Assembly: GCA_963929535.1 (NCBI GenBank)
Contig: CAWVIZ010000009.1
Location: 150,433-214,432, forward strand
Source: an uncultured Lachnospiraceae bacterium
GTDB taxonomy: Bacteria; Bacillota; Clostridia; Lachnospirales; Lachnospiraceae
DNA: 64,000 nt
Direction of reading: 5' to 3'
The position numbers and the translations under genes were made by a program. Shown here in pieces: positions 295 through 63,060 of the stretch (within the stretch, counting starts at the first letter, position 1; each line of letters opens with the position of its first letter). Under the pieces are notes generated by a model. It did no database searches. It had not been told where the DNA came from and saw only the letters and a program-made list of their open reading frames with translations.

Positions 295-322
295 CAGGAA
301 CCGCAGGATCACAGATCCCATT

Positions 323-862: not shown

Positions 863-907
863 ATTGTCACCTCCCTGCTCTGCCCGCGCATTTCGGAGCA
901 GGATATC

Positions 908-1798: not shown

Positions 1799-1898
1799 AC
1801 GCCACTCTCCTCTTCTCGTTCTTTATGGATATCTCTGCTTTTGAAAAGAGGCCGCCGCACTTCCGCGTGCAGCAGCCGCCAGGAGGGATATGTACCGG

Positions 1899-3149: not shown

Positions 3150-3167
3150 ATTGTTTCCTTCCTCCCG

Positions 3168-3830: not shown

Positions 3831-3939
3831 GCTGCCGTATTCCTGCTTTCCTGTATTATTTTCGGACAGCGGCTTTCCGCAGTCCGGAGCCAGTCTTTAC
3901 AACCGCTTTGTATGACTGCTTTGCAGCGGCCTGGCTCAT

Positions 3940-5310
3940 TCACAATCTCTGTACCGCGTCCATGGCCAGCAGCGACCGTTCACATTCCCCTGCCTCCATG
4001 GTAATCTGCCAGCACAGAGGGCTTCCCTTCATATGCTCTGACGCATAACAGAGACCATTGGTCCTCTCGTCCAGGAAAGGCCTGTCGATCTGGTTGGGAT
4101 CTCCCAGCAGAATGATCTTGGTATCCTTCCCTGCACGGGTTATAATGCCCTTGATCTGATTGGGCGTGGTATTCTGAGCTTCATCTATGATCAGATACGT
4201 TTTGATGATGGAACGTCCCCGGATATAGTTCAGCGCTTCCGTCTGGATCAGTCCCCGGGCAAAGATTTCATCCACCTTTCCTTTCAGCTCCTGCTCGTTC
4301 TCAAACCTCTCCTCCTCACTGGAGTCGATAAGCTGCTCCAGATTGTCGATCACGGGACGCATCAGAGGAGAAATTTTTTCCTGTTCATCACCGGGCAAAA
4401 AACCGATATCGGAATCAAACTGGGCATTGGGCCGGCAGATCAGGATCCTGCGGTACTCCCCGGTGGGATGGTTCAGCAGTTTCTCCAGCCCCACTGCCAG
4501 AGAATAAAAGGTCTTGCTGGTTCCGGCCATTCCCTTTACGATCACCAGAGGCGCCTTTTCCGCCGGCTGCATCAGCGCCTCCTGAAGAAAATACTGTCCC
4601 GCATTCCTGGGGGAGATCCCGTATGGCTGGCACTTTCGGTATTCCAGCTTCCGGATGATCCCTTTCTCCATCCGTCCCAGGTGAGTTTTCTTTCGGGACT
4701 GATCTGCCTGCAGGATCACAAACTGATTTTCTGTAAGCTGGGGAATATACCGTTCTCCCTTATCATTCAGATCGTACACGCAGTCTGCCGGGACGCCCTT
4801 TTTCTTAAAATCCTTAAAAATATCTTCCGGTACGTACACCATTCTGCGCCCGGTATACTGTTTCTCCTGCTCCAGCACCTGTTCCGCCATAAAATCCTGA
4901 GCCAGGATCCCCAGAAGCTGAGCCTTCAGACGCAGAAGGATATCTTTCGTCACCAGAATTACCTGGCTCTCTTTTTCTGCAAGTCCCAGACACACCTTCA
5001 ATATACGGTTATCCATGGAGCTGTCCGGCAGATCCTCCGGCAGCGCAACATCCACAAAATTCTTCTCCACCCGGAGCTGACCTCCTGTGGAAAGCTTTAC
5101 TCCCTCCAGCAGATTTCCCTTCTGCCGGAGCTGTTCCAGATACCGGATCACTCTGCGGGCACTGGCCCCCCGTTCTCCCTCCGCTTTTTTCAAACCGTCC
5201 AGCTCCTCCAGAACCGCCAATGGCAGCACGATCTGGTTTTCCTCAAAGCATTCCGGCGCATAAGGGGCCTGAATCAGTACATTGGTGTCAAGAACGTAAA
5301 CTTTGCTCAT
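3940..5310 (-). CDS. PhoH-like ATPase with N-terminal PIN domain (YlaK-type)
   Basis: PIN start MSKVYVLDTNVLI, Walker A GMAGTSKTF, Walker B IIDEAQN. The ATG at 5310 is preceded by GGGAGG. The 89-codon upstream extension in the ORF track has no support. Confidence 0.85.
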   Translation of the reverse strand: MSKVYVLDTNVLIQAPYAPECFEENQIVLPLAVLEELDGLKKAEGERGASARRVIRYLEQLRQKGNLLEGVKLSTGGQLRVEKNFVDVALPEDLPDSSMDNRILKVCLGLAEKESQVILVTKDILLRLKAQLLGILAQDFMAEQVLEQEKQYTGRRMVYVPEDIFKDFKKKGVPADCVYDLNDKGERYIPQLTENQFVILQADQSRKKTHLGRMEKGIIRKLEYRKCQPYGISPRNAGQYFLQEALMQPAEKAPLVIVKGMAGTSKTFYSLAVGLEKLLNHPTGEYRRILICRPNAQFDSDIGFLPGDEQEKISPLMRPVIDNLEQLIDSSEEERFENEQELKGKVDEIFARGLIQTEALNYIRGRSIIKTYLIIDEAQNTTPNQIKGIITRAGKDTKIILLGDPNQIDRPFLDERTNGLCYASEHMKGSPLCWQITMEAGECERSLLAMDAVQRL

Positions 5311-5608
5311 GGTAATTCCTCCCGGTACTCTCCCGCTTTCAGCCGCCGCAGGGCAGCCTGATAACGGAGAATTCTTACTTTCCGACAGCAGGCCAACCGG
5401 CTGTCGTTTCCAAGCATTGTACATGGAAAATGTGAATTCCAGAGAATACCCGGATAAAATCCAGGTTAAATCGGCCTTGCAGACCGCTGTTGACCGGCGG
5501 CATACGCCAGGAGCAGCCAGATATCCGGCTGAACCTAAGCCCCTCAGCCCCAGTCCCCTGTTTGCCTGAATTCCCATCCCGGCACCAGTCCGTCCTTACA
5601 TCCGACTT

Positions 5609-6442
5609 TCACGGATCCTGTACTCTGTGTTTATACATATTCTTGACATTCTGGACTTTGATCATTCTCTCCGCAGACAGCGGCTGCATCCGTTCCGTCA
5701 GAGCCAGAACCAGTCCGTCCGCCAGAGCTGCGGATACCGCGGAAGAATGGAATTCCTCTTCCTCTCCCCGGTATACATACAGATTCACATCCGCCCGGGT
5801 ATTCCCTTCCGGCCTGCTGGTAAACAGAAGCGTCCTGTAACCGGCAGTCCCGGCGTAATCCAGGATGATCTTCCCCTCTTCTGATATCTTGGAGTACCCG
5901 AAAAGGATCACCAGATCTCCCGGTCCCGCATGGACGATCCCTTCCACCACCTCTGTTCCTCCGGAAGGGATCATCGTGATATCAAATCCCAGCCTCCTGA
6001 GCCTGAAAAACAGCAGCTGGCCCACTGATGCGGAAGCATTCTTGGCATGGATATAGATCCTTTCTGCGGTGCGGATGCTTTCCACTGCCTGCCAAAACTG
6101 GTCAGGATCCATTCCCTCCAGGGTTTTCTCCATGCATTCCCGTTGGTGGGCGAACCACTTTTCCAGATCAAAGCCCTGGTTTTTCATCAGAGTCCCCGCC
6201 ATCTTTCTGGCGGCGCCCATACGGGTCTTCTGCTTCATTACCCCGTTCTTCAGCTCTTTAAAATCCTGATATCCCATATGCCTGACAAAACGGGAGATGG
6301 TCGCCTCGGAAACCTCCAGCCGGGCAGCCAGCTGTCCGATACTGAGAAACAGAAACTCGTCCGTATTGTTCTCAATAAATTCCCGGATCCTCCAGTCAGA
6401 TTTTGTAAACTTTGTGCCGCTGTTTTTTACTGTCAGTACCAT
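5609..6442 (-). CDS. RpiR/MurR family transcriptional regulator (HTH + SIS domain)
   Basis: HTH_6-like N-terminus (FLSIGQLAARLEVSEATISRFVRHMGYQDFKELK) and a SIS-like C-terminus. The start was chosen at the internal M (MVLTVKN) behind GGGAGGAG. Confidence 0.85.
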   Translation of the reverse strand: MVLTVKNSGTKFTKSDWRIREFIENNTDEFLFLSIGQLAARLEVSEATISRFVRHMGYQDFKELKNGVMKQKTRMGAARKMAGTLMKNQGFDLEKWFAHQRECMEKTLEGMDPDQFWQAVESIRTAERIYIHAKNASASVGQLLFFRLRRLGFDITMIPSGGTEVVEGIVHAGPGDLVILFGYSKISEEGKIILDYAGTAGYRTLLFTSRPEGNTRADVNLYVYRGEEEEFHSSAVSAALADGLVLALTERMQPLSAERMIKVQNVKNMYKHRVQDP

Positions 6443-6635
6443 GTATCTCCTCCCAGGCAGATCTGCCATTCCGAACAATTCTATTATAACGTAAAAAGGC
6501 CGGGTGTACTACACAGAATTTCAGAAAATCTCCGCCATTTCTCATGGATGATTTTCTTCCCCCTCCGCATGTAAAGCGGCCGGGGACGTCTTCTGCATAT
6601 ACGCCCGGCTGACTGCCCTGCCTGCTCTTATCCGT

Positions 6636-7427
6636 TTATCCCTCTTCCACCAGAACAGACACGTAGTTTCCTCCGTCCGCATGGATCTCCTTCAGCGCCC
6701 TTTTCAGAAGACCCGCGGTTTTTACCTGGAAGGCCGCGTTGTCCGATATCTGAACAGAATAACGGCCTTCCTCCATTTCTCTGTAAAGATCCTTCACGGT
6801 CTTTACCTCTCTCTCCAGACAGGTACGGACACAGCCGTACTGTACAGCCTGATGAGTATCGCTTCCGCTGACCACCGGGATCTTCAGGCTGCGGCCCAGC
6901 TCATAAGTCAGCTGTTCTGTCCGTTTTCTGTTCTCTGCCACATCCTTGCCGTTAAGATCGATAAAATCAAATCTCTCAAGCTGACGGCGGGGAAGCTCAG
7001 GGATATGCCCGCCCTCCCGGAAAGGATGGCCGGCCCCTACGATCACCTGATATTCATCAAACAGATCCCTCAGCTTTTCAAAAGGAAGAAATGCTTCCTT
7101 CTCTTTGTATGGCTCCAGACGGCAGTTAAGCTCCAGAATCTCCTCCGGAGTTCCGATGGAAAGAATATGACCTCCCTCCGCAATGTCTGTCTCCATTCCC
7201 GCAAAGATCCTGAGCCCTTCTCCGGTTACCAGAGTATCCCCCTCCCGGCTGCAGGTTTCCATCAGATAGCTGTACAGCTCATCAAACTGCAGCGTATTAA
7301 AATGTTCCGTCAGACATAGCGCGTCCAGCCCGGCCTTTTTTGCCTCGCCAAACAGCCAGTCTGTATACACAGTGGAAAAAGGCAGTTTTTTCGCCAGTTT
7401 TCCGTGTGTATGAAAATCAATGTACAC
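6636..7427 (-). CDS. PHP-domain metal-dependent phosphoesterase
   Basis: N-terminal MYIDFHTHG PHP motif, with further H/D motifs (TEHFN, GAGHPF, SGSDTH). It lies directly downstream of ecfT on the same strand. Confidence 0.75.
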   Translation of the reverse strand: MYIDFHTHGKLAKKLPFSTVYTDWLFGEAKKAGLDALCLTEHFNTLQFDELYSYLMETCSREGDTLVTGEGLRIFAGMETDIAEGGHILSIGTPEEILELNCRLEPYKEKEAFLPFEKLRDLFDEYQVIVGAGHPFREGGHIPELPRRQLERFDFIDLNGKDVAENRKRTEQLTYELGRSLKIPVVSGSDTHQAVQYGCVRTCLEREVKTVKDLYREMEEGRYSVQISDNAAFQVKTAGLLKRALKEIHADGGNYVSVLVEEG

Positions 7428-7449
7428 GATAGTTTCTCCTTTCCTGCTG

Positions 7450-8286
7450 TTAGATCAATGTTCCCGCCAGAGCAGCCGCTGCCGCTGCCAAAACCGATAC
7501 AGCCACAAAAAGAACGTCATCATACGTAACCTTCAGGGCAGACAGCTTCATCTTCTTTACCTCCCGGTTTACCGCCGCGTACCGGTATCCTTTGATCTCC
7601 AGAGCCTCCACTGTGGTCCTGGAACGCTTGGCCGTATTCAGCATCAGCGGATAGAAAGAATGCATGATCACCTTGACCTGATAGATCAGGCAGCGTACCT
7701 TACCTGCAAATGTCCGGTTATCCGGCGCATTTCCCCGCAGCCGGTAGGAAAGAAGCACATTCTGAAATTCCTCCATCAGCATGGGCAGCATCCGGTAAGC
7801 GTAGGAGATGGAAAAGGACAGCCGCTCCGGACATCCGAACCACATCAGTCCGTTGGAAAGTCTGTCGGGATCCAGTCCGGAAAATACTGTAATGGAAGCC
7901 AGGGAAACCGTAGCCACCTTCAGCGTAAGCACCAGGAGCGGAATCACGGTCTCCCCGTTTCCGCCGAACAACAGGGAAGCCAGAAAAAGATATCCCGTCT
8001 GAGAAAATACTCCGATCACAAACAAAAGCAGCACCAGCCCTGCCACCCGTGCCATCAGAGTTGTAACTGTCACGATCAGAAAGCATCCCAGAAGGAAAGG
8101 CACGCTGTCTGCAAACCAGGGTACCAGCGCGAAAAACGCATACCAGACCAGAAGGATCCTGGGATCCCGGGCGGCAATAAATGTGTCGTCATTGCCATAA
8201 GCATTTTTCAGAACCTGATTTCTCAGAAAATCCATGGACAGCTTATCCAGTACGCTGTCCGACAGTTTTCTCATCATCTTTTCCAT
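7450..8286 (-). CDS. ecfT: Energy-coupling factor transporter transmembrane component (EcfT/CbiQ family)
   Basis: Polytopic membrane protein with an EcfT-like coupling motif (AYRMLPMLMEEFQNVLLSYRLRG). The ATG at 8286 sits behind GGAGGAG, 1 nt after the stop of the ATPase gene. Confidence 0.8.
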   Translation of the reverse strand: MEKMMRKLSDSVLDKLSMDFLRNQVLKNAYGNDDTFIAARDPRILLVWYAFFALVPWFADSVPFLLGCFLIVTVTTLMARVAGLVLLLFVIGVFSQTGYLFLASLLFGGNGETVIPLLVLTLKVATVSLASITVFSGLDPDRLSNGLMWFGCPERLSFSISYAYRMLPMLMEEFQNVLLSYRLRGNAPDNRTFAGKVRCLIYQVKVIMHSFYPLMLNTAKRSRTTVEALEIKGYRYAAVNREVKKMKLSALKVTYDDVLFVAVSVLAAAAAALAGTLI

Positions 8287-8287
8287 T

Positions 8288-9982
8288 TTAAACCACTCCT
8301 CCAAATCCTTTGATAAAATCATCCACTGTGTAGCAGAACGCCTTCGGATCCAGCGCCTTCCCCATGGAGAAAATCTCCGGCGGACGGATCCCTGTCTTCT
8401 CCACCACTTCCCGGTTTCCGAAAATCTCATCCCGGCCGCCGTCCGCGATCACCTGTCCCTGCCATAAAACAATGATCCTCTGAGCCCACTCACAGACAAG
8501 CTGCATATCATGGGTGGCGATCATCACGGTTTCCGTGATGTTCTTCATATCGTTCAGAGTCCGCATGATCTCTTTCCTGGTGGCAATATCCAGGTTGGCT
8601 GTAGGTTCATCCAGCAGCAGGATCTCCGGATTCAGAGCAATGCCGATCGCCAGGCTGGCCCGCCGCATCTGTCCCCCGGAAAGAAGTCTTCCATCCCGCC
8701 ATCCAAGCTCGGTAAGCCGGAATCTCTCCAGGAGCTTTTCCGTCCTCTCCTCCCAGTCCTCCAGTTCCCGTGCTTTCATGGCAAATGCGATGTCGTTTTT
8801 TATGGAATCCTTGATAAACATATCCTCCGGATTCTGATAAACCAGGGACACATACCGGGACAGATCCTCCGGCCGGGTATCCCGGATATTTTTCCCTTTC
8901 AGCGTCACTGTTCCATCGGAAGGCTTCAGAAGTCCGGTCATCATTTTCATCAATGTGGACTTGCCGGCGCCGTTGGATCCGATCAGCGCGATTTTTTCTC
9001 CCCGATACAGGGTGAGATCCAGATTTCGGAACACCTCCCGGGGTTCTCCCTTTACACTGCGGTAGGATACGGATACGTTGTCAAAGCGGACCGCAGCCTC
9101 GCCCCTGGCGGCCTCCTTTTTCCCCTCCAGAGGTTTGTGATATGCAAGCCCTCCAAAGACTTCTTTTCCCTCTTCCACGGTGGAGGGGAGGAATTCCTTT
9201 GCGCGGATCCTTCCCGCCTTTTTCAGACCGTAGGCGGCCAGCGTCACCTGGGGAGGGAAAATATTGCATTCCTGCAGCTCTTCTACCCTCTGCAGGGCAT
9301 CCTGGGCAGTCAGCTTCCACTGTACGGCTCCGTTCTTCATCAGCACCACATGACGGCAGAAGTCCGCGATGTACTCTGTATGGTGCTCGATCACGATAAT
9401 GGTTTTCCCGTGCTTTTCATTGAGCTCCTTCAGGATCTGGTAGATCTGATCCGCATGATAAGGATCCAGCTGAGCAATGGGCTCATCCAGAATGATCACC
9501 TCCGGCCGGAGAGAAACAGCTCCCGCCAATGCCAGAAGATGGGTCTGTCCTCCGGAAAGCTGCCAGATATAATCCTGCTCCCGTCCCTCCAGGCCGCACA
9601 TCTTCAGAGCCTCCTGCCCCCGTCTGAGATAATCTTTCATGGCATAGTTCATGCAGGCATAGGATGCGTCATCCAGAACCGTAGGCCGGACGATCTGATT
9701 TTCAAAATCCTGGTAGACGTAGCCCACCTTCTGGGCCAGACTGCCGATATCTGTCTCCAGAGTATTCAGCCCTCCTGCGAAGACCTCTCCCTGAAACTCC
9801 CCGGTGATAAAGTGGGGGATCAACCCGTTCATCACTTTACAGAGCGTGGACTTTCCGCATCCGTTATTTCCCACGATGGCCAGAAAATCTCCCTCCTCTA
9901 TTTCCAGGTTTACCCCCGAAAGCGTCGGAGAAGACGCCCCGGGGTAGGTAAATGTCAGATTTCTGATCTCAATACTGTTCAT
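8288..9982 (-). CDS. Fused double ABC ATPase (EcfA1-EcfA2-like)
   Basis: Two Walker A motifs (GNNGCGKST, GSNGAGKST), two LSGGQ signatures, and two Walker B motifs (ILDEP, LLDEP). 564 aa. Confidence 0.9.
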   Translation of the reverse strand: MNSIEIRNLTFTYPGASSPTLSGVNLEIEEGDFLAIVGNNGCGKSTLCKVMNGLIPHFITGEFQGEVFAGGLNTLETDIGSLAQKVGYVYQDFENQIVRPTVLDDASYACMNYAMKDYLRRGQEALKMCGLEGREQDYIWQLSGGQTHLLALAGAVSLRPEVIILDEPIAQLDPYHADQIYQILKELNEKHGKTIIVIEHHTEYIADFCRHVVLMKNGAVQWKLTAQDALQRVEELQECNIFPPQVTLAAYGLKKAGRIRAKEFLPSTVEEGKEVFGGLAYHKPLEGKKEAARGEAAVRFDNVSVSYRSVKGEPREVFRNLDLTLYRGEKIALIGSNGAGKSTLMKMMTGLLKPSDGTVTLKGKNIRDTRPEDLSRYVSLVYQNPEDMFIKDSIKNDIAFAMKARELEDWEERTEKLLERFRLTELGWRDGRLLSGGQMRRASLAIGIALNPEILLLDEPTANLDIATRKEIMRTLNDMKNITETVMIATHDMQLVCEWAQRIIVLWQGQVIADGGRDEIFGNREVVEKTGIRPPEIFSMGKALDPKAFCYTVDDFIKGFGGVV

Positions 9983-56092: not shown

Positions 56093-56487
56093 TCCCCTTA
56101 CTTTCCGCTGTAAACATACGGGGCCGTCTATCAGACAGCCCCAAAACATTCCAGCAAATATATTGTTCTCTTTTTCTGCTATAACATGTATCATCATTTC
56201 TGCGCAATTTCGTTCTGTTATCTGTATATTATGATATACCCTTCTATTTGTCAATGAATATCCTCTTTTTTGGAATGGTATATGTTGTTGATTTCTTAAA
56301 ATAGCATATTTATGATCTACTTGCCTGTCAGCGGATTGCTCTGTATACTGTCATAAGACTACAGAAAGAAAAAGTCTCAGAGCACCCTCCCTGGAAAGTC
56401 GTGTACTCTGAGACCCGGTTATAAAAACCATGGTTATTATATCAGAATACACACTGACCTACAAGGCGGACTCCGGTGTTTTTTGTT

Positions 56488-56976
56488 ATGAGCAGTGATG
56501 ACACCCCTGTCTGCCCCGTCTGTGGCGGTACTTTGAAGTATCGCGATACCAGACTACGTATCCGGAAGAAGGAAGGCGGCGTGAAAGAGTATCTTATGAT
56601 CCGCAGGCTCCGCTGTACGGAATGCCACCGACATCACAACGAGCTTCCTGATTGCCTTGTACCCCACAAGCATTATGAAGCCGAGGTGATCTCCGGCGTG
56701 CTCGACGGGATCGTAACATCGGAGGATGCTGATTCGGAAGACTCTCCTTCCCTGCTGACCATGTTACGATGGCTCCAGTGGTTTCGGATGAACCTCGCAA
56801 ATATTGAAGGATTCCTGCGCAATGCCGGATACCGGATACTTGGATTGGGAGAAGAACTTCTTTTCTCCCATGCGTCACTGCTCGATACCATACGCCAAAC
56901 ACATCAGGACTGGCTGGAGCGTATCCTCCGTATCATCTACAACAGCGGCGGCTTTTTACCTGCTGTACCATGGTGA
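56488..56976 (+). CDS. Zinc-ribbon protein resembling the DUF6431 family (transposon-associated)
   Basis: Motifs CPVCGG...RRLRCTECHRHHNELPDCLVPHKHY. From memory, this family commonly precedes rve/Mu-type transposases in Clostridia. Confidence 0.6.
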   Translation: MSSDDTPVCPVCGGTLKYRDTRLRIRKKEGGVKEYLMIRRLRCTECHRHHNELPDCLVPHKHYEAEVISGVLDGIVTSEDADSEDSPSLLTMLRWLQWFRMNLANIEGFLRNAGYRILGLGEELLFSHASLLDTIRQTHQDWLERILRIIYNSGGFLPAVPW

Positions 56977-57050
56977 TGCTATTGCACCTGTTTTGATTCG
57001 TCTGTCACCGGATCAGCAGGTATAGTGGTCTCAGAAGGAGGTCACTATAT

Positions 57051-57872
57051 ATGAATACCAATACAAACAGAATCAAACAATGGCAGGAACAGGAAGCCCT
57101 TTCCCGATTCCAGCTGATTGCGCCGCTGCTTCAGGAAGATCTGGACGATGCAAAGAGGCTGCAGCTCCGGAAACAGATTGCTCAGGACAATGATATTTCC
57201 GTCCGGTCCATCTACCGCTATGAAAAGGCCTACCGTGAAGGACAGTTTGCCGGCTTAAAACCAGCCGCACGCGAAAAACGCCGTTCACAGAAGCTTCCGG
57301 AAAACTTTGATCTTCTGCTTGAGCAGGCGGTCCAGCTCCGTAAAGAAGTCCCGGAGCGGTCTGTCGCACAGATCATCTGCATCCTGGAACTGGAAGGCTA
57401 TGCTGCACCGGGAGTCCTGAAACGCTCCACTCTGGAACGGCACCTATACCGGGCTGGTTACGGAAGGGAACAGATGCAGATGTACCGCGATGCACGGGGA
57501 AGTTCTTCCAAACGTTTCTGCAAACCGCACCGTATGATGCTGGTACAGGGGGATATCAAGTACGGCCCGAAACTTCCGATTGGGAAAAATGGTGCCAGAG
57601 TACAGACGTATCTTTCCTCCGCAATCGATGACCATTCCCGCCTACTGTTGGCTTCCCGTTTCTATGACAGCCAGGAGGAAGCCATTGTTGAGGATACGTT
57701 CCGCCAGGCGATCCTCCGATACGGAAAGTTTGATGCCTGCTACTTTGATAACGGTTCCCAGTATATCGCCAGACAGATCAGGCTCTCTCTTTCAAGACTG
57801 GGGATCCGGGTCCTCCATGCAAAACCGCGGAGCGGCAAAAGCAAAGGTTATGTAAAGACTTCATTTATGTAA
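57051..57872 (+). pseudogene. DDE (rve) transposase with Mu-transposase C-terminal domain, 5' fragment interrupted by the trio-recombinase element
   Basis: N-terminal HTH, with DDE residues in MLVQGDIKYG and YFDNGSQY. The native sequence ends at ...RSGKSKG (57847). The frame then runs 24 nt into the inverted repeat and stops. Confidence 0.85.
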
Positions 57873-57931
57873 AGAAATGTGGGCTCAGCCCAGTGCTTAC
57901 ACGGAACTGAGCTTAAATTTCTTTACATAAA
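57848..57931. repeat. Left 84-bp terminal inverted repeat of the trio-recombinase element
   Basis: 83/84 identical to the reverse complement of 61227-61310; the single mismatch is 57896 versus 61262. It contains TTATGTAAAG at 57848 and 57865 and CTTTACATAA at 57921. Confidence 0.95.
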
Positions 57932-57932
57932 T

Positions 57933-58958
57933 TTACCGCTTATTAAAGCTTTTGAGCCATTCTTTCAGATTGGTATCAGATTCCCATTTTGCTTCTTCTT
58001 TTGGAAGGATTTCTTTGCTTGCAGCTTCGATTGCTTTTCTTTTCAGTTTCGCATCCGTTCTTGCGTAGATTTCGGTAGTCATAACGCTGGAATGTCCGAG
58101 CAGATCCCTTATATACATCAGATCAACTCCTGATGTAATGAGCTCCATCGCAGCAGTATGCCGCATTTTGTGTGCTGTGAGGTCATCTGGTATCAGTGTT
58201 GGCTCTTTCTGTCTGGCTTTCATCCCATATTTCTTCAGCACATAATTGACACCTTGTCTTGTAAACTGTGAATTCATATGACTTTTGAAAAGATATTCCT
58301 CAAAGCGTGCCTCGGTATCATATTTCATACAGGAGATATATTTCTGTATGTGTGGAACAGCCGTTTTCATCAGTGGGACATACCTGCCTTTATTCCCTTT
58401 GCCGTGGATCCTTATAGTGTACGGCTCAGTCAGTGAAATGTCCTTTACTTTTATATTTATCAGTTCTGACACACGTACGCCGGTTGTATAAAGGAGCAGT
58501 AACATTACATAATCTCTCAAGCCATTCGTGGCATTCATGTCTATCTGACCGACTAAAAGTTCAACGCCTTCCGTCTTCATGTAGGAAATCTCTTTTTGTT
58601 CTGTTTTTTTTAACGGGATCCCGAGTATCCGCTGGTATTCCTCCATGTAATCCGGCAGTTCATATTTTAGGTAATGAACAAATCCCTTCATTGCGGCAAG
58701 TCTGTAATTACGTGTGGCCGGGCTGTTTTTTCTGCATTCCTCAAGCCATTTCAGAAAGCCAAGTATGGATTCCCTTGTATAATCCATGACAGATATCTTT
58801 TCAGGCTTTATTCCGCATATGGATTCCATGTATTCGAGGTAAAGAACAAAAGCATTCCTATAAGTATCTATGGTTTGGGGAGAACTGCCATTTTCATTCG
58901 GAAGATAACGGGTAAAATATCTGCTAAGATGTACTGCAAAATCAGTTGTTTTCATCAT
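57933..58958 (-). CDS. Tyrosine recombinase (third of trio, XerD-like)
   Basis: Catalytic signatures TTGVRVSE, HKMRHTAAME, LGHSSVMTTEIYAR. The start is ambiguous (58964 GTG, 58958 or 58955 ATG). It overlaps the upstream ORF. Confidence 0.88.
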   Translation of the reverse strand: MMKTTDFAVHLSRYFTRYLPNENGSSPQTIDTYRNAFVLYLEYMESICGIKPEKISVMDYTRESILGFLKWLEECRKNSPATRNYRLAAMKGFVHYLKYELPDYMEEYQRILGIPLKKTEQKEISYMKTEGVELLVGQIDMNATNGLRDYVMLLLLYTTGVRVSELINIKVKDISLTEPYTIRIHGKGNKGRYVPLMKTAVPHIQKYISCMKYDTEARFEEYLFKSHMNSQFTRQGVNYVLKKYGMKARQKEPTLIPDDLTAHKMRHTAAMELITSGVDLMYIRDLLGHSSVMTTEIYARTDAKLKRKAIEAASKEILPKEEAKWESDTNLKEWLKSFNKR

Positions 58959-59928
58959 CAGCACCTTCTTTCGTTATCTTACCAAATATCCTGTCAACCG
59001 TGGAATGAAATTTTTCCTCGATGTAAGGGAAAAGCTGCAAGGTCAGCCTTACATACTTTTCCGTGGCAAAAATTGTTTTGTGACCTAAATAAGTTGACAG
59101 TATAGGCAGCGCAACATACATATCCAGCCCGGAATCCGTCATCTGCTTAAAGGAATATACAGCCATATGGTGTCTCCAGTCATGGATTCTTGGCCCATTG
59201 CCATCCCCTATGTAGGGAATACCGGCTCGGAACAGAAAGTCCCGATGCTTTTCGTAAATGCTTTTCTGATCAAGTCTGCCTCCATTTGCATTCGTAAAAA
59301 TGTAATCGGTATCATTCAGAAGGTAAAAGCATTTGTCTGCGTATTCATTTAAAAGAGCCTTGAGATCATCCCCCACAACAACATAGCGCTGTTTATCGTT
59401 TTTTGTCTCATTCAGAAGGAGGATACCTTTATCAAGATCCACATCCTTCTTACGGATTCCGAGAGTTTCATTAATTCTGGTTCCACAGCAGTAAAGGATT
59501 CGGAACAGTACAGGGTATTGGATGGCGTCTTTACGGTTCATTCCGCTTGTATAACTGTCAACTGCCATGAAATATCGTTCAGATTCGGCATCTGTATAAA
59601 TATGTGGCTCAAAATCTGTCCCTTTGTATTTTATATCGCGTACTACAAAAACATCATAACCTTTTATGCTCAGGTATTTCAGAAACTGTTTGCTGGAATT
59701 TATCCTTAAATAATGCGTTGTGTGGGACTCGTTCTTTCGCTGCTCAAGCCATCTGGATGCATGGAAGGTGCTAAATACTGGCTCCATTATCCTCTGTTCT
59801 ACGCAGAAACGGTCAAATCCTATGAGGTTGCGTCTGAAGTTGTCACCATCAAAGCCAGCTTCTGTTTTATCATTTATATAGTTTTTGATTTCATCTGCGA
59901 AAACAGATCTAAACTCATATCTTGCCAT
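58942..59928 (-). CDS. Tyrosine recombinase (second of trio)
   Basis: Signatures CCGTRINE, HDWRHHMAV, LGHKTIFATEKYVR. The ATG at 59928 is behind AAGGAGGG and overlaps the upstream ORF by 14 nt. Confidence 0.88.
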   Translation of the reverse strand: MARYEFRSVFADEIKNYINDKTEAGFDGDNFRRNLIGFDRFCVEQRIMEPVFSTFHASRWLEQRKNESHTTHYLRINSSKQFLKYLSIKGYDVFVVRDIKYKGTDFEPHIYTDAESERYFMAVDSYTSGMNRKDAIQYPVLFRILYCCGTRINETLGIRKKDVDLDKGILLLNETKNDKQRYVVVGDDLKALLNEYADKCFYLLNDTDYIFTNANGGRLDQKSIYEKHRDFLFRAGIPYIGDGNGPRIHDWRHHMAVYSFKQMTDSGLDMYVALPILSTYLGHKTIFATEKYVRLTLQLFPYIEEKFHSTVDRIFGKITKEGADDENN

Positions 59929-61171
59929 ATCTGCCCTCCTTGCTGTAGAATGGAGAGCGAAGCACAGGCATTGGAAGGGCACACTGTTTCAGCTTATCAT
60001 AGTCTACGGATATATAATAACCCGTGGTCGCTGTCCGTTGATGCCCCATAACAGTGCTTATGACCGGCATGGCGACATTCTTTTTCAGGAGGTTTGTCGC
60101 CAGGCTGTGTCGCATGGCATGGGGCCCATGCTTCTTATTCTGCCAGTTTTTTATTCCGGCGCGCTTCATATACTTGGTAACAACGGAATGGATTGTCGGG
60201 GAAGACAAGGGCTTTCCTTTATTGACATTCTCCATGGATACAATGATCTCCGGAGCATCTGTGGCAGGTCTTGCATGTTTCAGATAATCTATGATCGCAT
60301 TCCCTACTGTAGCCAAAAGAGGGAACTCTACCGATACATCCGTTTTATGTTGGACGAAATGTATGACATTCTTATCCCAGTCAATGTCATCAAAAGAAAA
60401 ACGGGTGATATCTTTTGCACGCCATCCGTATTCTGTAGCGAGAAGCAGGATCAGATAGTCTCTTTTCCCGATAGGTGATGCTCTTTCTACAGAAGCGATC
60501 AATTCCCTGATTTCATCTTCTTCATATGTTGTTGGCAGTTTGCAATCCTTCTTATAGTTATCAGGAAGGATAAAAACAGAGCAATCTTTTGATGATGTTC
60601 CTTCATCATAAACGAATTGAAGGAAAAGTTTTATGGTGCGCGCGGCATTATGTCTTGAGGCAAGGGAATAATTCATGGATGAAAAGAAACATTCTGTTTT
60701 TTCAATCGAAAGATCTTCATATTTCATCCCTTTCCCGTTCATGAACCTGCAGAAGTTATACAGATATACCCTTTTATTTTCAATTGTTTTCTCTGCAAGC
60801 ATAAGTTCATCCCTACAATAATCCAGATATCTTAATGCTGCCAAACCAATCTCTCCATGAAAAGTATATTCAACACTTGGGCAGCGAAATTCAAAATCGC
60901 CATTCCGCTGGTAAGAGATCAACATGCGGACAGCACGCAGTTTTTCCCTAAAATGAGCAGGCGCGCGTTTTGGCATGAGATGCGTGCCAAATATCTCATC
61001 GCAGTATTGCTTGCCGATGGCTTCACTGAATTCAGAAATCTCTTTGCTTTTCAGCCATTCCCGTAAGGCATTCCACTGTGCGGTTATCCTTACATAATAA
61101 TTCGACTCGTATTCCCTATGCTGCAATTCTTCATCACATAAGGCAACCAGTTCTTCAAAATTTGTTACCAT
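59915..61171 (-). CDS. Tyrosine recombinase (first and largest of trio, 418 aa)
   Basis: Signatures YGWRAKD, HAMRHSLAT, MGHQRTATTGYYI, with a long N-terminal SAM-like/arm-type extension. AAGGAGG ribosome-binding site. Confidence 0.88.
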   Translation of the reverse strand: MVTNFEELVALCDEELQHREYESNYYVRITAQWNALREWLKSKEISEFSEAIGKQYCDEIFGTHLMPKRAPAHFREKLRAVRMLISYQRNGDFEFRCPSVEYTFHGEIGLAALRYLDYCRDELMLAEKTIENKRVYLYNFCRFMNGKGMKYEDLSIEKTECFFSSMNYSLASRHNAARTIKLFLQFVYDEGTSSKDCSVFILPDNYKKDCKLPTTYEEDEIRELIASVERASPIGKRDYLILLLATEYGWRAKDITRFSFDDIDWDKNVIHFVQHKTDVSVEFPLLATVGNAIIDYLKHARPATDAPEIIVSMENVNKGKPLSSPTIHSVVTKYMKRAGIKNWQNKKHGPHAMRHSLATNLLKKNVAMPVISTVMGHQRTATTGYYISVDYDKLKQCALPMPVLRSPFYSKEGRYGKI

Positions 61172-61226
61172 ATTTATCGGTACCTCCTTGAAATAGTTTG
61201 GATAAATATGGTCTCATATTTGTTTT

Positions 61227-61310
61227 TTTATGTAAAGAAATTTAAGCTCAGTTCCGTGTAAACACTGGGCTGAGCCCACATTTCTTTACATAAATGAAGT
61301 CTTTACATAA
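61227..61310. repeat. Right 84-bp terminal inverted repeat of the trio-recombinase element
   Basis: Reverse complement of 57848-57931 with one mismatch. Confidence 0.95.
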
Positions 61311-61342
61311 CCTTTATTATGTAAAGATTTACATAATAAAGG
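61311..61342. repeat. Orphan palindrome carrying two more TTATGTAAA sites, flanked by CCTTT/AAAGG
   Basis: CCTTTATTATGTAAA-GA-TTTACATAATAAAGG has 15-nt perfect arms. It sits between IR-R and the resumption of the transposase frame. Confidence 0.9.
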
Positions 61343-61961
61343 GAAGATTGAAAAGTTCCATCAGGTAGTGGATATGTTTAACCGGGAGGCAAAACTAAAA
61401 AACATCAAAACTCTGGAAGAGCTGAACCGGCTGTGGGCCGTGTTCCTTGATGCGTACTATCATCAAAAGCCCCATGAAGGGATCAGCGAATACTACGAAA
61501 GCCTTGGTGCGGCAGTCCCGGAATCAGGGATCACTCCCCTTCAGGAATGGAACCGTGACAGCCGTCCCCTGACCTATCTGGATGTCTCTGTTGTATCCGA
61601 AGCATTTCTGCACCATGAGACACGTAAAGTGGACAAGGGCGCCTGTATCAGTTTCAGGGGCAGAAAGTATGAAACGAAACCGGCTCTGATCGGATATAAG
61701 GTTGAGATCTCCTATGATCCTGCAGCTCCCGAAACCATTACGGTAAGTTATCCGGGATACGAGCCGTTTCCCACACAGCCGGTCAGGATTGGCGAGTTCT
61801 GTGATAAGAACCCAACACTTCCTGCTGCGATGCAGGAACAGACTCCGACAACCTCGCGCTTCCTTGATGCGCTGGAAAAGAAACATTCGGAATCGACCCG
61901 CCAGATGGCCGATGCAATCTCCTTTGCTTCCTATCGGAAGGAGGTGGATGATCATGTATGA
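61341..61961 (+). pseudogene. DDE transposase, 3' fragment (catalytic E region and Mu-transposase C-terminal domain)
   Basis: The frame resumes GKIEKFHQVVDMFNRE..., later RKVDKGACISFRGRKYE. Deleting 57848-61342 (3495 bp) rejoins it in frame with 57051-57847. Confidence 0.85.
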
Positions 61962-62772
61962 ATCCTTCTTTGGAATGGAGCATACACCCTTTGTCCGTGA
62001 TATCCCAGCTGAGAAACTCTATGAGTCTGATGCATTCCGGGAAACGCTCGGCAGGCTCTGCTATGTAGCAGACCGGCAGATGTTTGCGGTCGTAACAGCA
62101 GATCCCGGCTGTGGAAAATCCACGCTGATCCGCAGGTTTTATTCGGAACTTCCGAGGGAAGAATATATCATCCTGTATCTTTCCGATTCCAAGCTGACTC
62201 CGCGGTGGTTTTATAAGGGGATGCTGGACCAGCTGGGGCTGGAAGCACGGTTCTACCGCGGCGATTCCAAACGTCAGCTCCAACAGCAGATCGAGATCAT
62301 CCATGGTGTCCAGCATAAAAAAGTGGTATGCGTTTTGGATGAGGCACACCTGCTGGAGAAAGAAACACTGGAAGAATTCCGTTTCCTTCTAAACTACAGG
62401 TTCGATTCTGTAAGTCCCATGGCTGTCGTGCTCGTAGGGCAGACAGAACTGTGGGACAACAAGCTGAAACTTCAACGGTACGCGGCGATCCGCCAGCGGA
62501 TCGATATGTACTGTACACTCCCGCATCTGGACCGGGCAGAGACAGAACAGTATGTCAAAAGCCATATGGATTATGCGGAATGCAGCCAGGAGATCTTTAC
62601 AACCAAAGCAATGGACGAGATCCATAAAGCTTCGGCCGGGATTCCGAGAATGGTCAACCGGGTGTGCGAAAAATCGCTTATGTATGCGTTCCAACAGCAA
62701 AAACGGCTGATCGATGATTACATGATCAAGTATGTAGTGGAACACGAAATGCTTGGAACCGTAACCGGATAG
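61954..62772 (+). CDS. AAA ATPase, transposition helper (ExeA/TniB/MuB-like)
   Basis: Walker A ADPGCGKST and Walker B VCVLDEAHLL. The ATG at 61954 overlaps the transposase stop, which is the typical coupling. Confidence 0.85.
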   Translation: MYESFFGMEHTPFVRDIPAEKLYESDAFRETLGRLCYVADRQMFAVVTADPGCGKSTLIRRFYSELPREEYIILYLSDSKLTPRWFYKGMLDQLGLEARFYRGDSKRQLQQQIEIIHGVQHKKVVCVLDEAHLLEKETLEEFRFLLNYRFDSVSPMAVVLVGQTELWDNKLKLQRYAAIRQRIDMYCTLPHLDRAETEQYVKSHMDYAECSQEIFTTKAMDEIHKASAGIPRMVNRVCEKSLMYAFQQQKRLIDDYMIKYVVEHEMLGTVTG

Positions 62773-62779
62773 AGAAGGT

Positions 62780-62800
62780 GCCGTCCGGAATCCGGACGGC
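62780..62800 (+). terminator. Perfect stem-loop after the ATPase gene
   Basis: GCCGTCCGGA-A-TCCGGACGGC. There is no U-tract. Confidence 0.45.
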
Positions 62801-63060
62801 CCATACATCAACCATCACGGTGACAGTAAACTTAGCAGTTTAAAGACAACTCATGAAAGCAGTCTGGTGACAGCTCATGAAATCAGCAACAGGTATATAG
62901 CAGTTCAGCTGTCCAGATCTCCACGCAGCAGAACCTATTCCTCCTTATCCTTGTGCATTCCGGGTTGAATTATGAGAATGAAGTACACAAAAGCAGTATT
63001 TTACCTGGCATCACAAGAAATGTTGCTGTAAATTTCAAAGCACCCTATAATAATGCAGAT

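What the first reader, a model, noticed from the sequence alone, without database searches (positions are those of the whole stretch)
57843..61342. Three-tyrosine-recombinase (RIT-type) element caught inside a DDE transposase gene with a reconstructable empty site
**What is there.** Three overlapping same-strand ORFs (418, 328 and about 341 aa) each keep the full R..HxxR..H..Y tyrosine-recombinase signature. They fill a visibly AT-rich segment bounded by 84-bp inverted repeats (83/84 identical).

**How it sits in the host gene.** The segment splits an rve/Mu-type transposase between ...RSGKSKG and KIEKFHQ..., just before the predicted catalytic glutamate. Deleting 57848-61342 (3495 bp) restores one continuous in-frame ORF.

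**Why it matters.** The architecture matches the recombinase-in-trio elements described in the literature, whose movement mechanism and target rules are poorly understood. This copy has near-identical ends, three apparently intact genes and a defined target. That makes it unusually informative and suggests recent activity.
Basis: partly seen in the sequence, partly recalled or inferred. Interest (0 to 1): 0.7.

Follow-up and report, generated by a model that had tools for sequence, protein, structure and literature searches.

The report
Recombinase-trio transposon homing into transposase genes
A small mobile element carrying three Xer-like tyrosine recombinases sits inside another transposon's transposase gene, and comparison with 25 related insertions shows this is its regular, sequence-specific target, which makes the unknown movement mechanism of these elements testable.

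Summary
Window 57848-61342 (3495 bp, 40.6% GC against 51.5%) holds three intact, overlapping minus-strand tyrosine-recombinase genes between 84-bp inverted repeats. It interrupts an rve/Mu-type transposase. Uninterrupted copies of that gene (99% identical protein) exist, and their DNA matches the predicted empty site exactly.

The trio matches the recombinase-in-trio (RIT) genes of Cupriavidus pHG1 gene for gene, so this is a RIT element.

Three things are new:
- **The ends are not symmetric.** The right end carries a 32-bp palindromic module (61311-61342). With the adjacent repeat end it forms a dif-like core of two XerD-type arms around 6 bp.
- **The target is regular.** In 25 distinct insertions of this clade the site is the same 16-bp sequence (NAARGS NAARRTNGAR, about 20 bits). 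It encodes K-[G/A/S]-K-[I/V]-E, the catalytic-glutamate motif of rve transposases. The module always lies on the same side.
- **The element moved recently.** Copies 99.8-99.9% identical occupy at least three other sites.

More distant RITs carry the same module. They cut IS21 transposase, group II intron reverse transcriptase and a recombinase-like gene at conserved motifs.

The circular intermediate and the role of each protein are inferred, not observed.

The parts
56283..62895 (+). Host mobile element, about 3.1 kb without the insertion. It encodes a DUF6431 protein, an rve/Mu-C transposase and an AAA_22 ATPase, and has terminal repeats TGTTGYTGATTTC.
   Evidence: Homology to the uninterrupted copies L010-L013 (98-99%) starts and stops at these coordinates.
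57051..57847 (+). 5' part of the interrupted transposase (tL). It ends ...AKPRSGKSKG, just after the end of the Pfam rve model.
Evidence: PF00665 rve covers residues 164-261 and profile positions 7-101 of 102.
57842..57847 (+). Left 6-bp junction sequence CAAAGG. This is the target's own version of the crossover hexamer.
   Evidence: The empty sites L010-L013 read GCAAAGGGAAG, with one copy of CAAAGG.
57848..57931 (+). Left inverted repeat (ritC side). It carries motifs a1 at 57848-57857 and a2 at 57865-57874 (both TTATGTAAAG) and the inverted a3' at 57921-57930 (CTTTACATAA). The stretch from a2 to a3' is an imperfect palindrome of about 66 nt.
   Evidence: Motif conservation is seen across 37 ends. 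Compensatory changes occur in the palindrome.
57933..58958 (-). ritC-like tyrosine recombinase (340-341 aa), the most XerD-like of the three. It has a C-terminal W..L.EWL helix motif.
   Evidence: PF00589 E=1e-35 and PF02899. TIGR02225 XerD E=9e-53, below the curated cutoff. Best match to pHG1 gene 3, E=4e-80. PDB Xer hits.
58942..59928 (-). ritB-like tyrosine recombinase (328 aa). It overlaps each neighbour by 14 nt.
   Evidence: PF00589 E=2e-19. Best match to pHG1 gene 2, E=3e-58.
59915..61171 (-). ritA-like tyrosine recombinase (418 aa). It has an extra N-terminal four-helix bundle of about 110 aa ahead of a Xer-like core-binding plus catalytic body.
   Evidence: PF00589 E=4e-27. Best match to pHG1 gene 1, E=1e-47. 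XerD 1a0p aligns only with residues 115-396. AF2 model. Foldseek best hits are Xer recombinases.
61227..61310 (+). Right inverted repeat (ritA side). It carries motifs a3 at 61228-61237, a2' at 61284-61293 and a1' at 61301-61310.
61301..61325 (+). Intact dif-like core: CTTTACATAA - CCTTTA - TTATGTAAA. It consists of two XerD-type arms around a 6-bp central region. It is formed by the end of the right repeat, the inner hexamer (61311-61316) and the first arm of the mini-unit.
   Evidence: The sequence is. The arm equals the first 9 nt of the right-hand arm of B. subtilis dif, TTATGTAAACT (PMC3025954). The same arrangement occurs in 11 loci with perfect arms.
61317..61336 (+). 20-bp mini-unit TTATGTAAA-GA-TTTACATAA: two arms back to back. 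It is inherited with the element.
   Evidence: It is present in all 25 insertions, always on the K-[I/V]-E side of the target. Related copies share the same variant arm.
61337..61342 (+). Right 6-bp junction sequence TAAAGG. It is the exact complement of the inner hexamer and differs from the target's CAAAGG, so it came in with the element.
61343..61961 (+). 3' part of the interrupted transposase (tR). It starts at the K-I-E codons of the catalytic-glutamate motif and contains Mu-transpos_C.

Best explanation
This is an intact, recently active recombinase-in-trio (RIT) element: a 3.5-kb transposon whose only genes are three Xer-like tyrosine recombinases.

**Shown: site anatomy.**
- The recognition motif, TTATGTAAA(G), is the same as the XerD-type arm of a Firmicute dif site.
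- Each end has three copies of it: two direct copies 17 bp apart, and one inverted copy about 46 bp further in.
- One end carries an extra 20-bp pair of arms.
- That pair, the neighbouring repeat end and a 6-bp spacer together form a complete dif-like core (arm, 6 bp, arm).
- The two junctions with the host DNA are half-cores.

**Shown: target.** The element always sits at the 16-bp sequence NAARGS|NAARRTNGAR, which encodes K-[G/A/S]-K-[I/V]-E of rve-type DDE transposases. The hexamer NAARGS is present at both junctions, and the extra arms always abut the K-[I/V]-E side.

**Inferred: movement.**
1. The recombinases recombine the two junction half-cores across the 6-bp region. This releases a circle and restores the transposase gene.
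2. In the circle the joined ends form a palindrome of about 210 bp with two mirror-image cores.
3. Either core can recombine with a new target. This would explain why the gene body is found in both orientations while the leftover core always ends up on the same side.
4. Non-identical hexamers are tolerated. The new left junction keeps the target's hexamer, and the right junction keeps the donor's.

**Consequence.** The host transposase is split just before its catalytic glutamate. The element thereby lands in abundant, horizontally mobile DNA that is harmless to the cell.
For: **Identity.**
- All three proteins score as PF00589.
- Each is the positional counterpart of a gene in the pHG1 and Bacteroides trios.
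- The closest solved structures are Xer recombinases.

**Precise insertion.** The empty-site DNA is known from four contigs.

**Target.**
- There are 25 distinct insertion junctions from genome and metagenome contigs.
- 23 of them lie in rve-type transposase genes of several families: IS21 IstA-like, TniA/Mu-C-like and a 'PYTPTQKAKIERW' type. About half are confirmed by Pfam hits. The rest are assigned from the conserved junction peptide alone.
- Two lie in unrelated genes that share the DNA motif: an fn3 surface protein and a CdiA-CT RNase domain.
- The consensus carries about 20 bits. The only perfect match in the 64-kb window is the occupied site.
- The mini-unit abuts the tR side in 25 of 25.

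**dif-like core.** The arm TTATGTAAA is the start of the right-hand arm of B. subtilis dif.

**Mobility.**
- Copies with 2-6 mismatches over about 3.5 kb sit at other sites (L001, L014/L028, L016).
- About 1000 RitA homologues were found, mostly on repeat-length contigs of 3.3-3.5 kb.

**Selection.** All three genes are intact in 9 of 10 diverged copies examined; L006 has a stop in ritB. dN is about 0.1 with dS saturated, and dN/dS is below 0.07 where computable.

**Donor and target hexamers.**
- Window: CAAAGG on the left, which equals the empty site; TAAAGG on the right, which is the complement of the inner hexamer.
- L060: its right and inner hexamers equal those of the parent-like copy L061, which encodes the identical RitA.

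**Generality.**
- The 32-34-bp palindrome next to one repeat is also found in RITs of pHG1, Bacteroides, Ruminococcus albus and Rhodococcus.
- Removing the element by the same rule restores continuous ORFs in three of them.
Against: - **No circular junction or excision product was seen.** It was absent from all fetched loci and from one scan of viral contigs.
- **The symmetric-junction model is only partly borne out.** It predicts a fixed orientation of the mini-unit relative to the genes. Only 18 of 25 fit (Fisher p=0.049, uncorrected for relatedness). A further inversion step has to be assumed.
- **Seven short-read contigs have hybrid flanks** (L015, L026, L027, L030, L062, L063, L065). De Bruijn assemblers can mis-thread an 84-bp inverted repeat, so the orientation of the gene body in metagenome contigs is less secure than the junction sequences.
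- **The donor/target hexamer rule rests on two solid cases.** Both differ only at position 1 of the hexamer, which might lie outside the exchanged region.
- **Part of the 16-bp conservation reflects the codon constraint of the protein motif,** not recognition by the element.
- **The division of labour is unknown.** Which Rit protein binds which site has not been determined.
Confidence: 0.7

Rival explanations
1. The element and target are the same, but movement goes through single-stranded DNA. One strand of the element folds, and the terminal palindromes form hairpins that present a duplex core. Only one pair of strands is exchanged with the target, and replication completes the insertion. 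This is how CTX phage uses Xer/dif and how integron attC sites work.
For: - The roughly 66-nt module in each end stays palindromic through compensatory changes. 10 of 24 pairs change on both sides. 85.5% of cells are paired, against 31-51% when the partners are slid. 0 of 500 shuffles reach the observed covariation.
- The inner and right hexamers are exact complements in 8 of the 19 insertions of the first batch (the six added later were not tallied), as a hairpin stem would require.
- In both solid cases the target hexamer is on the left and the donor hexamer on the right. One-strand exchange predicts this; full exchange with a heteroduplex predicts 50:50.
- A mobilome study proposed hairpin intermediates for RITs because no circles could be mapped (PMC5737581).
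Against: - The arms of the mini-unit are often mismatched (2 of 9 in L005, L006, L007 and L018), so a perfect stem is not maintained there.
- Half-sites for a dimeric protein can also co-vary.
- Two cases cannot establish strand bias.
- No replication or nicking function is encoded.
Confidence: 0.25
2. The host's own XerC/XerD (or XerS) does the strand exchange at the dif-like cores, as for IMEX elements. The Rit proteins serve as targeting or architectural factors.
For: - The arms are near-identical to a Firmicute XerD arm, with the canonical 6-bp spacing.
- The target itself has no good arm, so some targeting factor is needed.
Against: - All three Rit proteins keep the complete catalytic residue set and are under strong purifying selection.
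- The cores contain no XerC-type arm.
- Distant RITs use quite different arm sequences (pHG1 AAATGTGCT, Rhodococcus TTTATGTTCA), which track the element rather than the host dif.
Confidence: 0.07
3. There is no real target specificity. The element inserts widely, and only insertions in dispensable transposase genes survive selection.
For: Insertions in selfish DNA are expected to be neutral, and the conserved protein motif inflates the apparent DNA consensus.
Against: - All 25 junctions fall at the same nucleotide within the motif, with the same polarity, in several unrelated transposase families.
- Survivorship would scatter insertions along the genes.
- The two non-transposase sites carry the same DNA motif.
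Confidence: 0.03
4. The trio is a domesticated switch that reversibly turns the host transposon's transposase off and on. It is not an autonomous transposon.
For: - Excision would restore the ORF exactly.
- The body may invert between the left junction and the inner core.
Against: - Near-identical copies sit in different, unrelated transposase genes and in two non-transposase genes.
- The uninterrupted host element is common without the trio.
Confidence: 0.03

Closest known systems
Recombinase-in-trio (RIT) elements of Cupriavidus metallidurans CH34 and C. necator pHG1 (Van Houdt 2009/2012; Ricker 2013)
   Same: - Three overlapping same-strand tyrosine-recombinase genes in the order A (about 410-420 aa), B, C, with gene-for-gene matches.
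- A unit of about 3.5 kb with terminal inverted repeats.
- A 32-bp palindrome beside one repeat.
- Insertion inside genes of other mobile elements. The literature reports radC, IS66 tnpA and a Tn6049-like tnpA.
   Different: - Only 27-38% protein identity.
- Inverted repeats of 84 bp rather than about 28-35 bp.
- Different arm sequence.
- The target here is defined as one 16-bp sequence across 25 insertions. In the papers I could read, target specificity of RITs is listed as not tested and no transposition has been reproduced (PMC10214605).
- I could not read Ricker 2013.
Tn554 family (Staphylococcus, Enterococcus)
   Same: - A tyrosine-recombinase transposon with a specific target.
- It makes no ordinary target duplication.
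- About 6 bp from the previous site is carried to one junction of the new insertion (as summarised in PMC10214605).
   Different: - Tn554 has two recombinases plus a non-recombinase TnpC.
- Its terminal inverted repeats are only imperfect, it has no palindromic module, and it carries cargo genes.
- Here the third gene is a full recombinase.
[quoted passage not shown]
   Same: - Several tyrosine-recombinase genes act together.
- The target's 6 bp stays at attL and the donor's 6 bp goes to attR.
- They are not self-transmissible.
   Different: - SEs and GInts have four core genes. One lacks the catalytic residues, and another is Srap/GinD.
- They are large cargo islands, mostly in Gammaproteobacteria.
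- BLAST shows no relation between those families.
Xer/dif recombination and the elements that exploit it (IMEX, e.g. CTX phage)
   Same: - A core of two arms around a 6-bp central region.
- The arm sequence is TTATGTAAA.
- The Rit proteins are closest to Xer recombinases in both sequence and fold.
- The ends are palindromic, like the folded attP of CTX.
   Different: - The element encodes its own three recombinases.
- Both arms are XerD-type.
- The target is not dif and has no recognisable arms.
Tn916/Tn1549 conjugative transposons
   Same: Excision and integration take place across a 6-bp region that need not match between donor and target (coupling sequences).
   Different: - One integrase plus Xis.
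- AT-rich, loosely specific targets.
- Large conjugative cargo.
Homing endonuclease genes, inteins and group II introns
   Same: The strategy is the same: home to DNA that encodes the most conserved motif of a widespread enzyme, so that targets exist in many hosts.
   Different: - The chemistry is entirely different.
- Those elements splice out and leave the host gene functional. This one inactivates it.

Membership tests
RIT (recombinase-in-trio) elements | Three adjacent, same-strand, overlapping tyrosine-recombinase genes | tested here: met
   The ORFs are at 59915-61171, 58942-59928 and 57933-58958, all on the minus strand, with 14-nt overlaps. All three score as PF00589.
RIT (recombinase-in-trio) elements | The three proteins belong to three distinct subfamilies in the fixed order RitA, RitB, RitC | tested here: met
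   A 3x3 blastp against the trios of pHG1 (NC_005241 51476-54721) and Bacteroides finegoldii was run. Same-position pairs score E 1e-43 to 1e-94 over full length; cross-position pairs score 1e-6 to 1e-13. Caveat: the reference trio was chosen by position on pHG1, a plasmid the literature describes as rich in RITs. It was not taken from a labelled RitA/B/C set.
RIT (recombinase-in-trio) elements | All three keep the catalytic R-H-R-Y residues | tested here: met
   Read directly from the translations: GWRAKD...HAMRH...GHQ...Y for A, GTRINE...HDWRH...GHK...Y for B, and GVRVSE...HKMRH...GHS...Y for C.
RIT (recombinase-in-trio) elements | A unit of about 3.5 kb bounded by inverted repeats, with a palindrome overlapping one end | tested here: met
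   The unit is 3495 bp with 84-bp repeats and a 32-bp palindrome at 61311-61342. pHG1 has a 35-nt repeat and a 32-nt palindrome. Van Houdt 2012 reports about 3,500 bp, a 28-9 bp inverted repeat and an overlapping palindrome.
RIT (recombinase-in-trio) elements | RitA has two sequential core-binding domains (Smyshlyaev 2021) | tested here: inconclusive
   The AF2 model (mean pLDDT 70) shows two successive four-helix bundles, at 5-90 and 106-189, with matching helix lengths ahead of the catalytic domain. XerD aligns only from residue 115. No sequence similarity was found between the two bundles. Foldseek aligned only about 290 of 418 columns, so the first bundle is not shown to have the core-binding fold.
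RIT (recombinase-in-trio) elements | RitC has an extra conserved C-terminal helix | tested here: met
   About 35 residues follow the catalytic Tyr and end in KWESDTNLKEWLKSF. The corresponding pHG1 and Bacteroides proteins end in SWQQNKALLEWLHSL and SWEKNNSLREWLKGL. This is a sequence-level comparison only.
RIT (recombinase-in-trio) elements | Multiple near-identical copies, indicating mobility as a unit | tested here: met
   Copies 99.8-99.9% identical sit at other sites in other assemblies.
Tn554 family | Two tyrosine recombinases (TnpA, TnpB) plus a non-recombinase TnpC; only imperfect terminal repeats | tested here: not met
   The third gene is a full tyrosine recombinase, and 84-bp inverted repeats are present.
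SE / GInt elements | Four core genes, including a recombinase-like protein without catalytic residues (Tfp/GinC) and Srap/GinD | tested here: not met
   There are only three genes, all with catalytic residues and no fourth ORF. NCBIfam GmtY/GmtZ hits are far below their cutoffs.
IMEX (elements integrated by host Xer at dif) | No recombinase of their own; integration at the chromosomal dif site | tested here: not met
   The element encodes three recombinases, and its target is a transposase coding sequence, not dif.

The most novel reading that the evidence does not exclude
RIT elements as a class may be homing transposons.

**Proposed rule.** Each clade recognises the DNA that encodes a catalytic or most-conserved motif of an enzyme belonging to another mobile element.

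**Cases seen here.**
- K-G-K-[I/V]-E, the catalytic glutamate of rve transposases (this clade, 25 sites).
- P-D|N-L-K, the second catalytic aspartate of IS21 IstA (Ruminococcus albus plasmid).
- P|Q-G-G-V-I-S-P, RT motif 4 of group II intron reverse transcriptases (Rhodococcus and Bacillus plasmids).
- T-E-R|Y, the apparent catalytic tyrosine of a recombinase-like gene (pHG1).

**Shared architecture.** All use a dif-like core with a 6-bp crossover region and a palindromic junction module carried at one end. Integration appears strand-biased, leaving the target's hexamer on one side and the donor's on the other.

**Status in the literature.** I did not find this in the papers I could search. 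I could not read Ricker 2013.
Probability: 0.5. Interest if true: 0.8.

Novelty: new member of a known kind. Interest (0 to 1): 0.7.

Why it matters
RIT elements were named in 2009 and occur in many phyla. [quoted passage not shown]

**What this element and its relatives supply:**
- exact left and right junctions
- a verified empty site
- a 16-bp target consensus
- a candidate crossover hexamer
- a complete dif-like core
- a parent-like and offspring-like pair of copies

**What becomes possible.** These are the parts needed for a two-plasmid transposition assay, and for asking why three recombinases are required.

**Biological point.** The element is a parasite of other mobile elements. It disables their transposases at the catalytic residue, and it finds targets in many hosts because the targeted codons cannot drift.

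**Practical point.** Assemblies break or mis-join at these elements, which matters when reading metagenome contigs around transposons.

Tried and rejected
- **DNA similarity searches.** Megablast of the element against the plasmid and phage collections gave no match.
- **Joined-end junction.** I searched for the predicted pattern (repeat end, 6 bp, mini-unit, 6 bp, repeat end) in all fetched loci and in viral contigs. Nothing was found.
- **Mini-unit orientation.** A purely symmetric joined-end model predicts a fixed orientation relative to the genes. After 19 sites the association was not significant (p=0.17). After 25 sites it was marginal (p=0.049). I therefore keep the model only with an added inversion step. 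The alternative, in which the body alone inverts, predicts a fixed orientation relative to the target. That fails too, with 15 against 10.
- **De novo origin of the mini-unit.** I rejected the idea that it is made afresh at each insertion by hairpin fill-in. Its arms are often imperfect, and related copies share the same variant arm.
- **End structure.** RNAalifold on the ends returned only the invariant stem. The extended stem had to be specified by hand.
- **RitA N-terminal bundles.** hhalign of one bundle against the other showed no similarity.
- **Incomplete copies.** The Bacteroides finegoldii trio has the palindromic module, but I could not find its far end. The Acetivibrio cellulolyticus copy lacks the mini-unit and the 3' half of the target. 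For the Mesorhizobium trio (L046) the palindrome scan found no module and its ends were not examined further. The Bacillus copy (L044) has no module on either side.
- **Hexamer rule.** L001 and L027 were dropped as evidence once hybrid flanks became apparent.
- **pHG1 target.** The pHG1 target gene gave no Pfam hit. Calling it a recombinase rests on the RefSeq annotation and its HDLR...TTERY motifs.

Full report
**1.

The minus strand carries three overlapping ORFs:
- 59915-61171, 418 aa.
- 58942-59982, 328 aa from the ATG at 59928.
- 57933-58964, 340-341 aa from the ATG.

All three score as Pfam Phage_integrase, with E-values of 4e-27, 2e-19 and 1e-35. The translations show the Arg, His-x-x-Arg and His...Tyr catalytic residues in each. 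NCBIfam places them nearest XerD, XerC and XerA, but far below the equivalog cutoffs.

The inverted repeat is 57843-57931 against 61227-61315, 89 nt with one mismatch. Five of those bases (AAAGG) are shared flank, so the element proper contributes 84 bp. GC is 40.6% inside the element and 51.5% for the window.

**2. The empty site is real**

- Removing 57848-61342 (3495 bp) gives a 471-aa ORF with rve and Mu-transpos_C domains.
- A 471-aa protein that is 99% identical and uninterrupted is on record from 57 contigs. More than 100 further full-length homologues read ...KPRSGKSKGKIEKFHQ... without a break.
- Four contigs carrying that protein have exactly the predicted DNA, GGCAAAAGCAAAGG|GAAGATTGAAAAG.
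- Their homology to the window starts at 56283 and stops at 62895. The interrupted gene therefore belongs to a 3.1-kb mobile element (DUF6431 protein, transposase, AAA_22 ATPase) that itself sits at different places.

**3. It is a RIT element**

- tblastn of the 418-aa protein against plasmids found 572 records, including Cupriavidus necator pHG1. The literature singles out pHG1 as rich in RITs.
- The pHG1 locus and a Bacteroides finegoldii locus each hold three overlapping genes of 410-420, 327-336 and 336-348 aa.
- In a 3x3 comparison each window protein matches the gene at the same position over its full length (E 1e-43 to 1e-94). Cross-position pairs reach only 1e-6 to 1e-13.
- The third protein shares the C-terminal W..L.EWL helix motif.
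- The first has about 110 extra N-terminal residues ahead of a Xer-like body. An AlphaFold model (mean pLDDT 70) shows them as a second four-helix bundle. I could not show that this bundle has the core-binding fold.

**4. The ends are not symmetric**

Read along the transposase strand, the insertion has this order:

| Part | Sequence or position |
|---|---|
| Left junction hexamer | CAAAGG |
| Left repeat | 57848-57931 |
| Genes | ritC, ritB, ritA (minus strand) |
| Right repeat | 61227-61310 |
| Inner hexamer | CCTTTA |
| Mini-unit | TTATGTAAA-GA-TTTACATAA |
| Right junction hexamer | TAAAGG |

- After the right hexamer the transposase resumes at GAAGATTGAA.
- The motif TTATGTAAAG or its complement occurs eight times in the element and nowhere else in the window.
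- Each repeat holds two direct copies 17 bp apart and one inverted copy about 46 bp further in. This layout is conserved in all 37 ends examined, while the sequence between the inner copies varies.
- TTATGTAAA is the start of the right-hand arm of the Bacillus subtilis dif site, ACTTCCTAGAA-TATATA-TTATGTAAACT (PMC3025954). By established knowledge of dif, this is the XerD arm.
- So CTTTACATAA-CCTTTA-TTATGTAAA at 61301-61325 is a dif-like core: two XerD-type arms around a 6-bp central region. The two junctions with host DNA are half-cores.

**5. The target is regular**

Sources: a genome scan gave 9 loci, a metagenome scan gave 25, and contig look-ups for four RitA homologues (P0174, P0227, P0236, P0202) gave more insertions. 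A fifth, P0180, gave only a rearranged copy. Many contigs are just the element (3.3-3.6 kb), as expected for a multicopy repeat.

What the 25 distinct junction sets show:
- Every one has the same arrangement as the window.
- The bare repeat end always abuts the upstream half of the target.
- The mini-unit always abuts the downstream half (25 of 25).
- The target is N-A-A-R-G-S followed by N-A-A-R-R-T-N-G-A-R, about 20 bits. It encodes K-[G/A/S]-K-[I/V]-E.
- 23 sites are rve-type transposase genes of clearly different families. The junction falls just past the end of the Pfam rve model, at the catalytic-glutamate motif. About half of these are confirmed by Pfam hits; the others are assigned from the junction peptide alone.
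- Two sites are unrelated genes with the same DNA motif: an fn3 surface protein and a CdiA-CT RNase domain whose Pfam match runs across the reconstructed junction.
- In the window, the only perfect match to the consensus is the occupied site.

Part of the conservation must come from the protein motif itself. Even so, the fixed position, the fixed polarity and the two off-target sites argue for recognition at the DNA level.

**6. Activity and selection**

- Copies differing from the window element by 2-6 bases over about 3.5 kb sit in a second and a third transposase gene (L001, L014/L028) and in the fn3 gene (L016). Others occur with different flanks in L015 and L019.
- Against ten copies at 51-86% protein identity, all three genes are intact, apart from a stop in ritB of L006. 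dN is 0.09-0.41, dS is saturated, and dN/dS is below 0.07 where it can be computed.
- About 1000 homologues of the first protein were found.

**7. The hexamers**

- The first 19 sites were tallied by pattern; 17 of them have all three hexamers known. All three agree in five; the two outer ones agree in five; the other combinations also occur.
- In the window the left hexamer equals the empty site. The right hexamer differs from it by one base and is the exact complement of the inner one, so it came with the element.
- L060 and L061 encode the same RitA. L061 has AAAAGG three times. L060 sits in a different transposase and has the native CAAAGG on the left but AAAAGG on the right and inside.
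- This resembles the 6-bp carry-over described for Tn554 and SE elements.
- It rests on two cases that differ only at position 1, so it is no more than suggestive.

**8. Orientation**

- The gene body lies in either orientation relative to the target: the ritA side is next to the mini-unit in 14 cases, the ritC side in 11.
- The mini-unit is itself an oriented unit (a variant arm, TC, a consensus arm) and also occurs both ways.
- A joined-end intermediate would carry a palindrome of about 210 bp with two mirror-image cores. Using either core explains both body orientations and the constant side of the mini-unit.
- That model also predicts a fixed orientation of the mini-unit relative to the genes. 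18 of 25 fit (p=0.049, uncorrected). Inversion between the two cores or between the repeats must be added.
- Caveat: an 84-bp inverted repeat can be mis-threaded by short-read assemblers.
- Seven contigs have hybrid flanks:
  - L015, L026 and L062 have upstream halves on both sides and no mini-unit.
  - L063 has downstream halves on both sides and two mini-units.
  - L027, L030 and L065 combine halves from different families.
- L062 and L063 look like the reciprocal products of an inversion between two copies. They could equally be alternative paths through an assembly graph.

**9. End palindromes**

The stretch from the second motif to the inverted third motif pairs as a 24-bp stem:
- 10 pairs have changes on both sides.
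- 85.5% of cells are paired, against 31-51% when the partners are slid.
- 0 of 500 shuffles reach the observed covariation.

This fits hairpins in single-stranded DNA, as proposed for RITs from mobilome data (PMC5737581). It also fits a dyad-symmetric protein site.

**10. Other RIT clades**

The same 32-34-bp palindrome (6 + 9-10 + 2 + 9-10 + 6) lies beside one repeat in four other elements:
- pHG1
- B. finegoldii
- Ruminococcus albus pRUMAL02
- a Rhodococcus plasmid

Removing the element by the same rule restores continuous ORFs:

| Element | Target gene | Cut site |
|---|---|---|
| R. albus pRUMAL02 | IS21 IstA-type transposase | ...RVLVPD\|NLKTGV... (second catalytic Asp) |
| Rhodococcus plasmid | group II intron reverse transcriptase | ...VTGTP\|QGGVISPL... 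(RT motif 4) |
| pHG1 | gene annotated as site-specific integrase (no Pfam hit) | ...PSTTER\|YLGY..., after an HDLR motif |

In a finished Bacillus plasmid, a trio lies between the downstream halves of two different intron reverse-transcriptase genes in inverted orientation. This is a real example of a hybrid-flank arrangement.

Earlier papers mention single RITs inside radC, an IS66 tnpA and a Tn6049-like tnpA. They state no rule.

**11. Verdict**

- The element is a new member of a known kind.
- The added value is the anatomy of its sites, a clade-wide target and evidence of recent movement.
- Together these turn the open question of how RITs move into a set of direct experiments.
- The circular intermediate, the strand bias and the roles of the three proteins remain inferences.

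Noticed in passing
window 56283-62895: The interrupted gene belongs to a 3.1-kb IS-like element encoding a DUF6431 protein, an rve/Mu-C transposase and an AAA_22 ATPase. Its ends are TGTTGYTGATTTC. Uninterrupted copies (98-99% identical) sit at different places in L010-L013.
   Followed up: partly
L044 (Bacillus sp. S3 plasmid NZ_CP039728.1), about 3230-6800: A RIT trio is flanked by the downstream halves of two different group II intron reverse-transcriptase genes (GGIISPLLAN... and GGVISPVLAN...) in inverted orientation, with no palindromic module. It looks like the product of an inversion between two copies, and it is in a finished plasmid.
   Followed up: partly
L062 and L063 (assemblies GCA_016648415.1 and GCA_016295205.1): These are reciprocal-looking arrangements of one element. 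L062 has upstream halves of two transposases on both sides and no mini-unit. L063 has their downstream halves on both sides and a mini-unit at each end. They may be a real inversion or an assembly path through the collapsed inverted repeat.
   Followed up: partly
L027, L030, L065: In these contigs the upstream flank comes from one transposase family and the downstream flank from another; L030, for example, has an IS21-type N-terminal half and a Mu-C-type C-terminal half. This could reflect deletions between copies in direct orientation, or assembly chimeras.
   Followed up: no
L001, L002, L009 (record titles): Contigs carrying this element or a close relative are binned to Blautia, Paraprevotella and Succinivibrionaceae genomes. 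For a multicopy 3.5-kb repeat this more likely reflects binning error than cross-phylum spread.
   Followed up: no
L040 (pHG1) 1-3685 and 7267-8688: The gene interrupted by the pHG1 RIT is the first of a minus-strand set annotated integrase, hypothetical protein, integrase. The reconstructed 494-aa product has HDLR...TTERY motifs but no Pfam hit. It may be a divergent recombinase of yet another mobile element.
   Followed up: partly
L012, about 3130-5137: Downstream of an uninterrupted copy of the host transposase, part of the ATPase gene is missing. Beyond the element's end lie other tyrosine-recombinase genes.
   Followed up: no
L051 (Acetivibrio cellulolyticus CD2, JH556651.1): A cultured isolate carries a copy with 72% RitA identity, next to the upstream half of a DUF6431-associated transposase. 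The other side has neither the mini-unit nor the downstream half, so this copy appears rearranged.
   Followed up: partly
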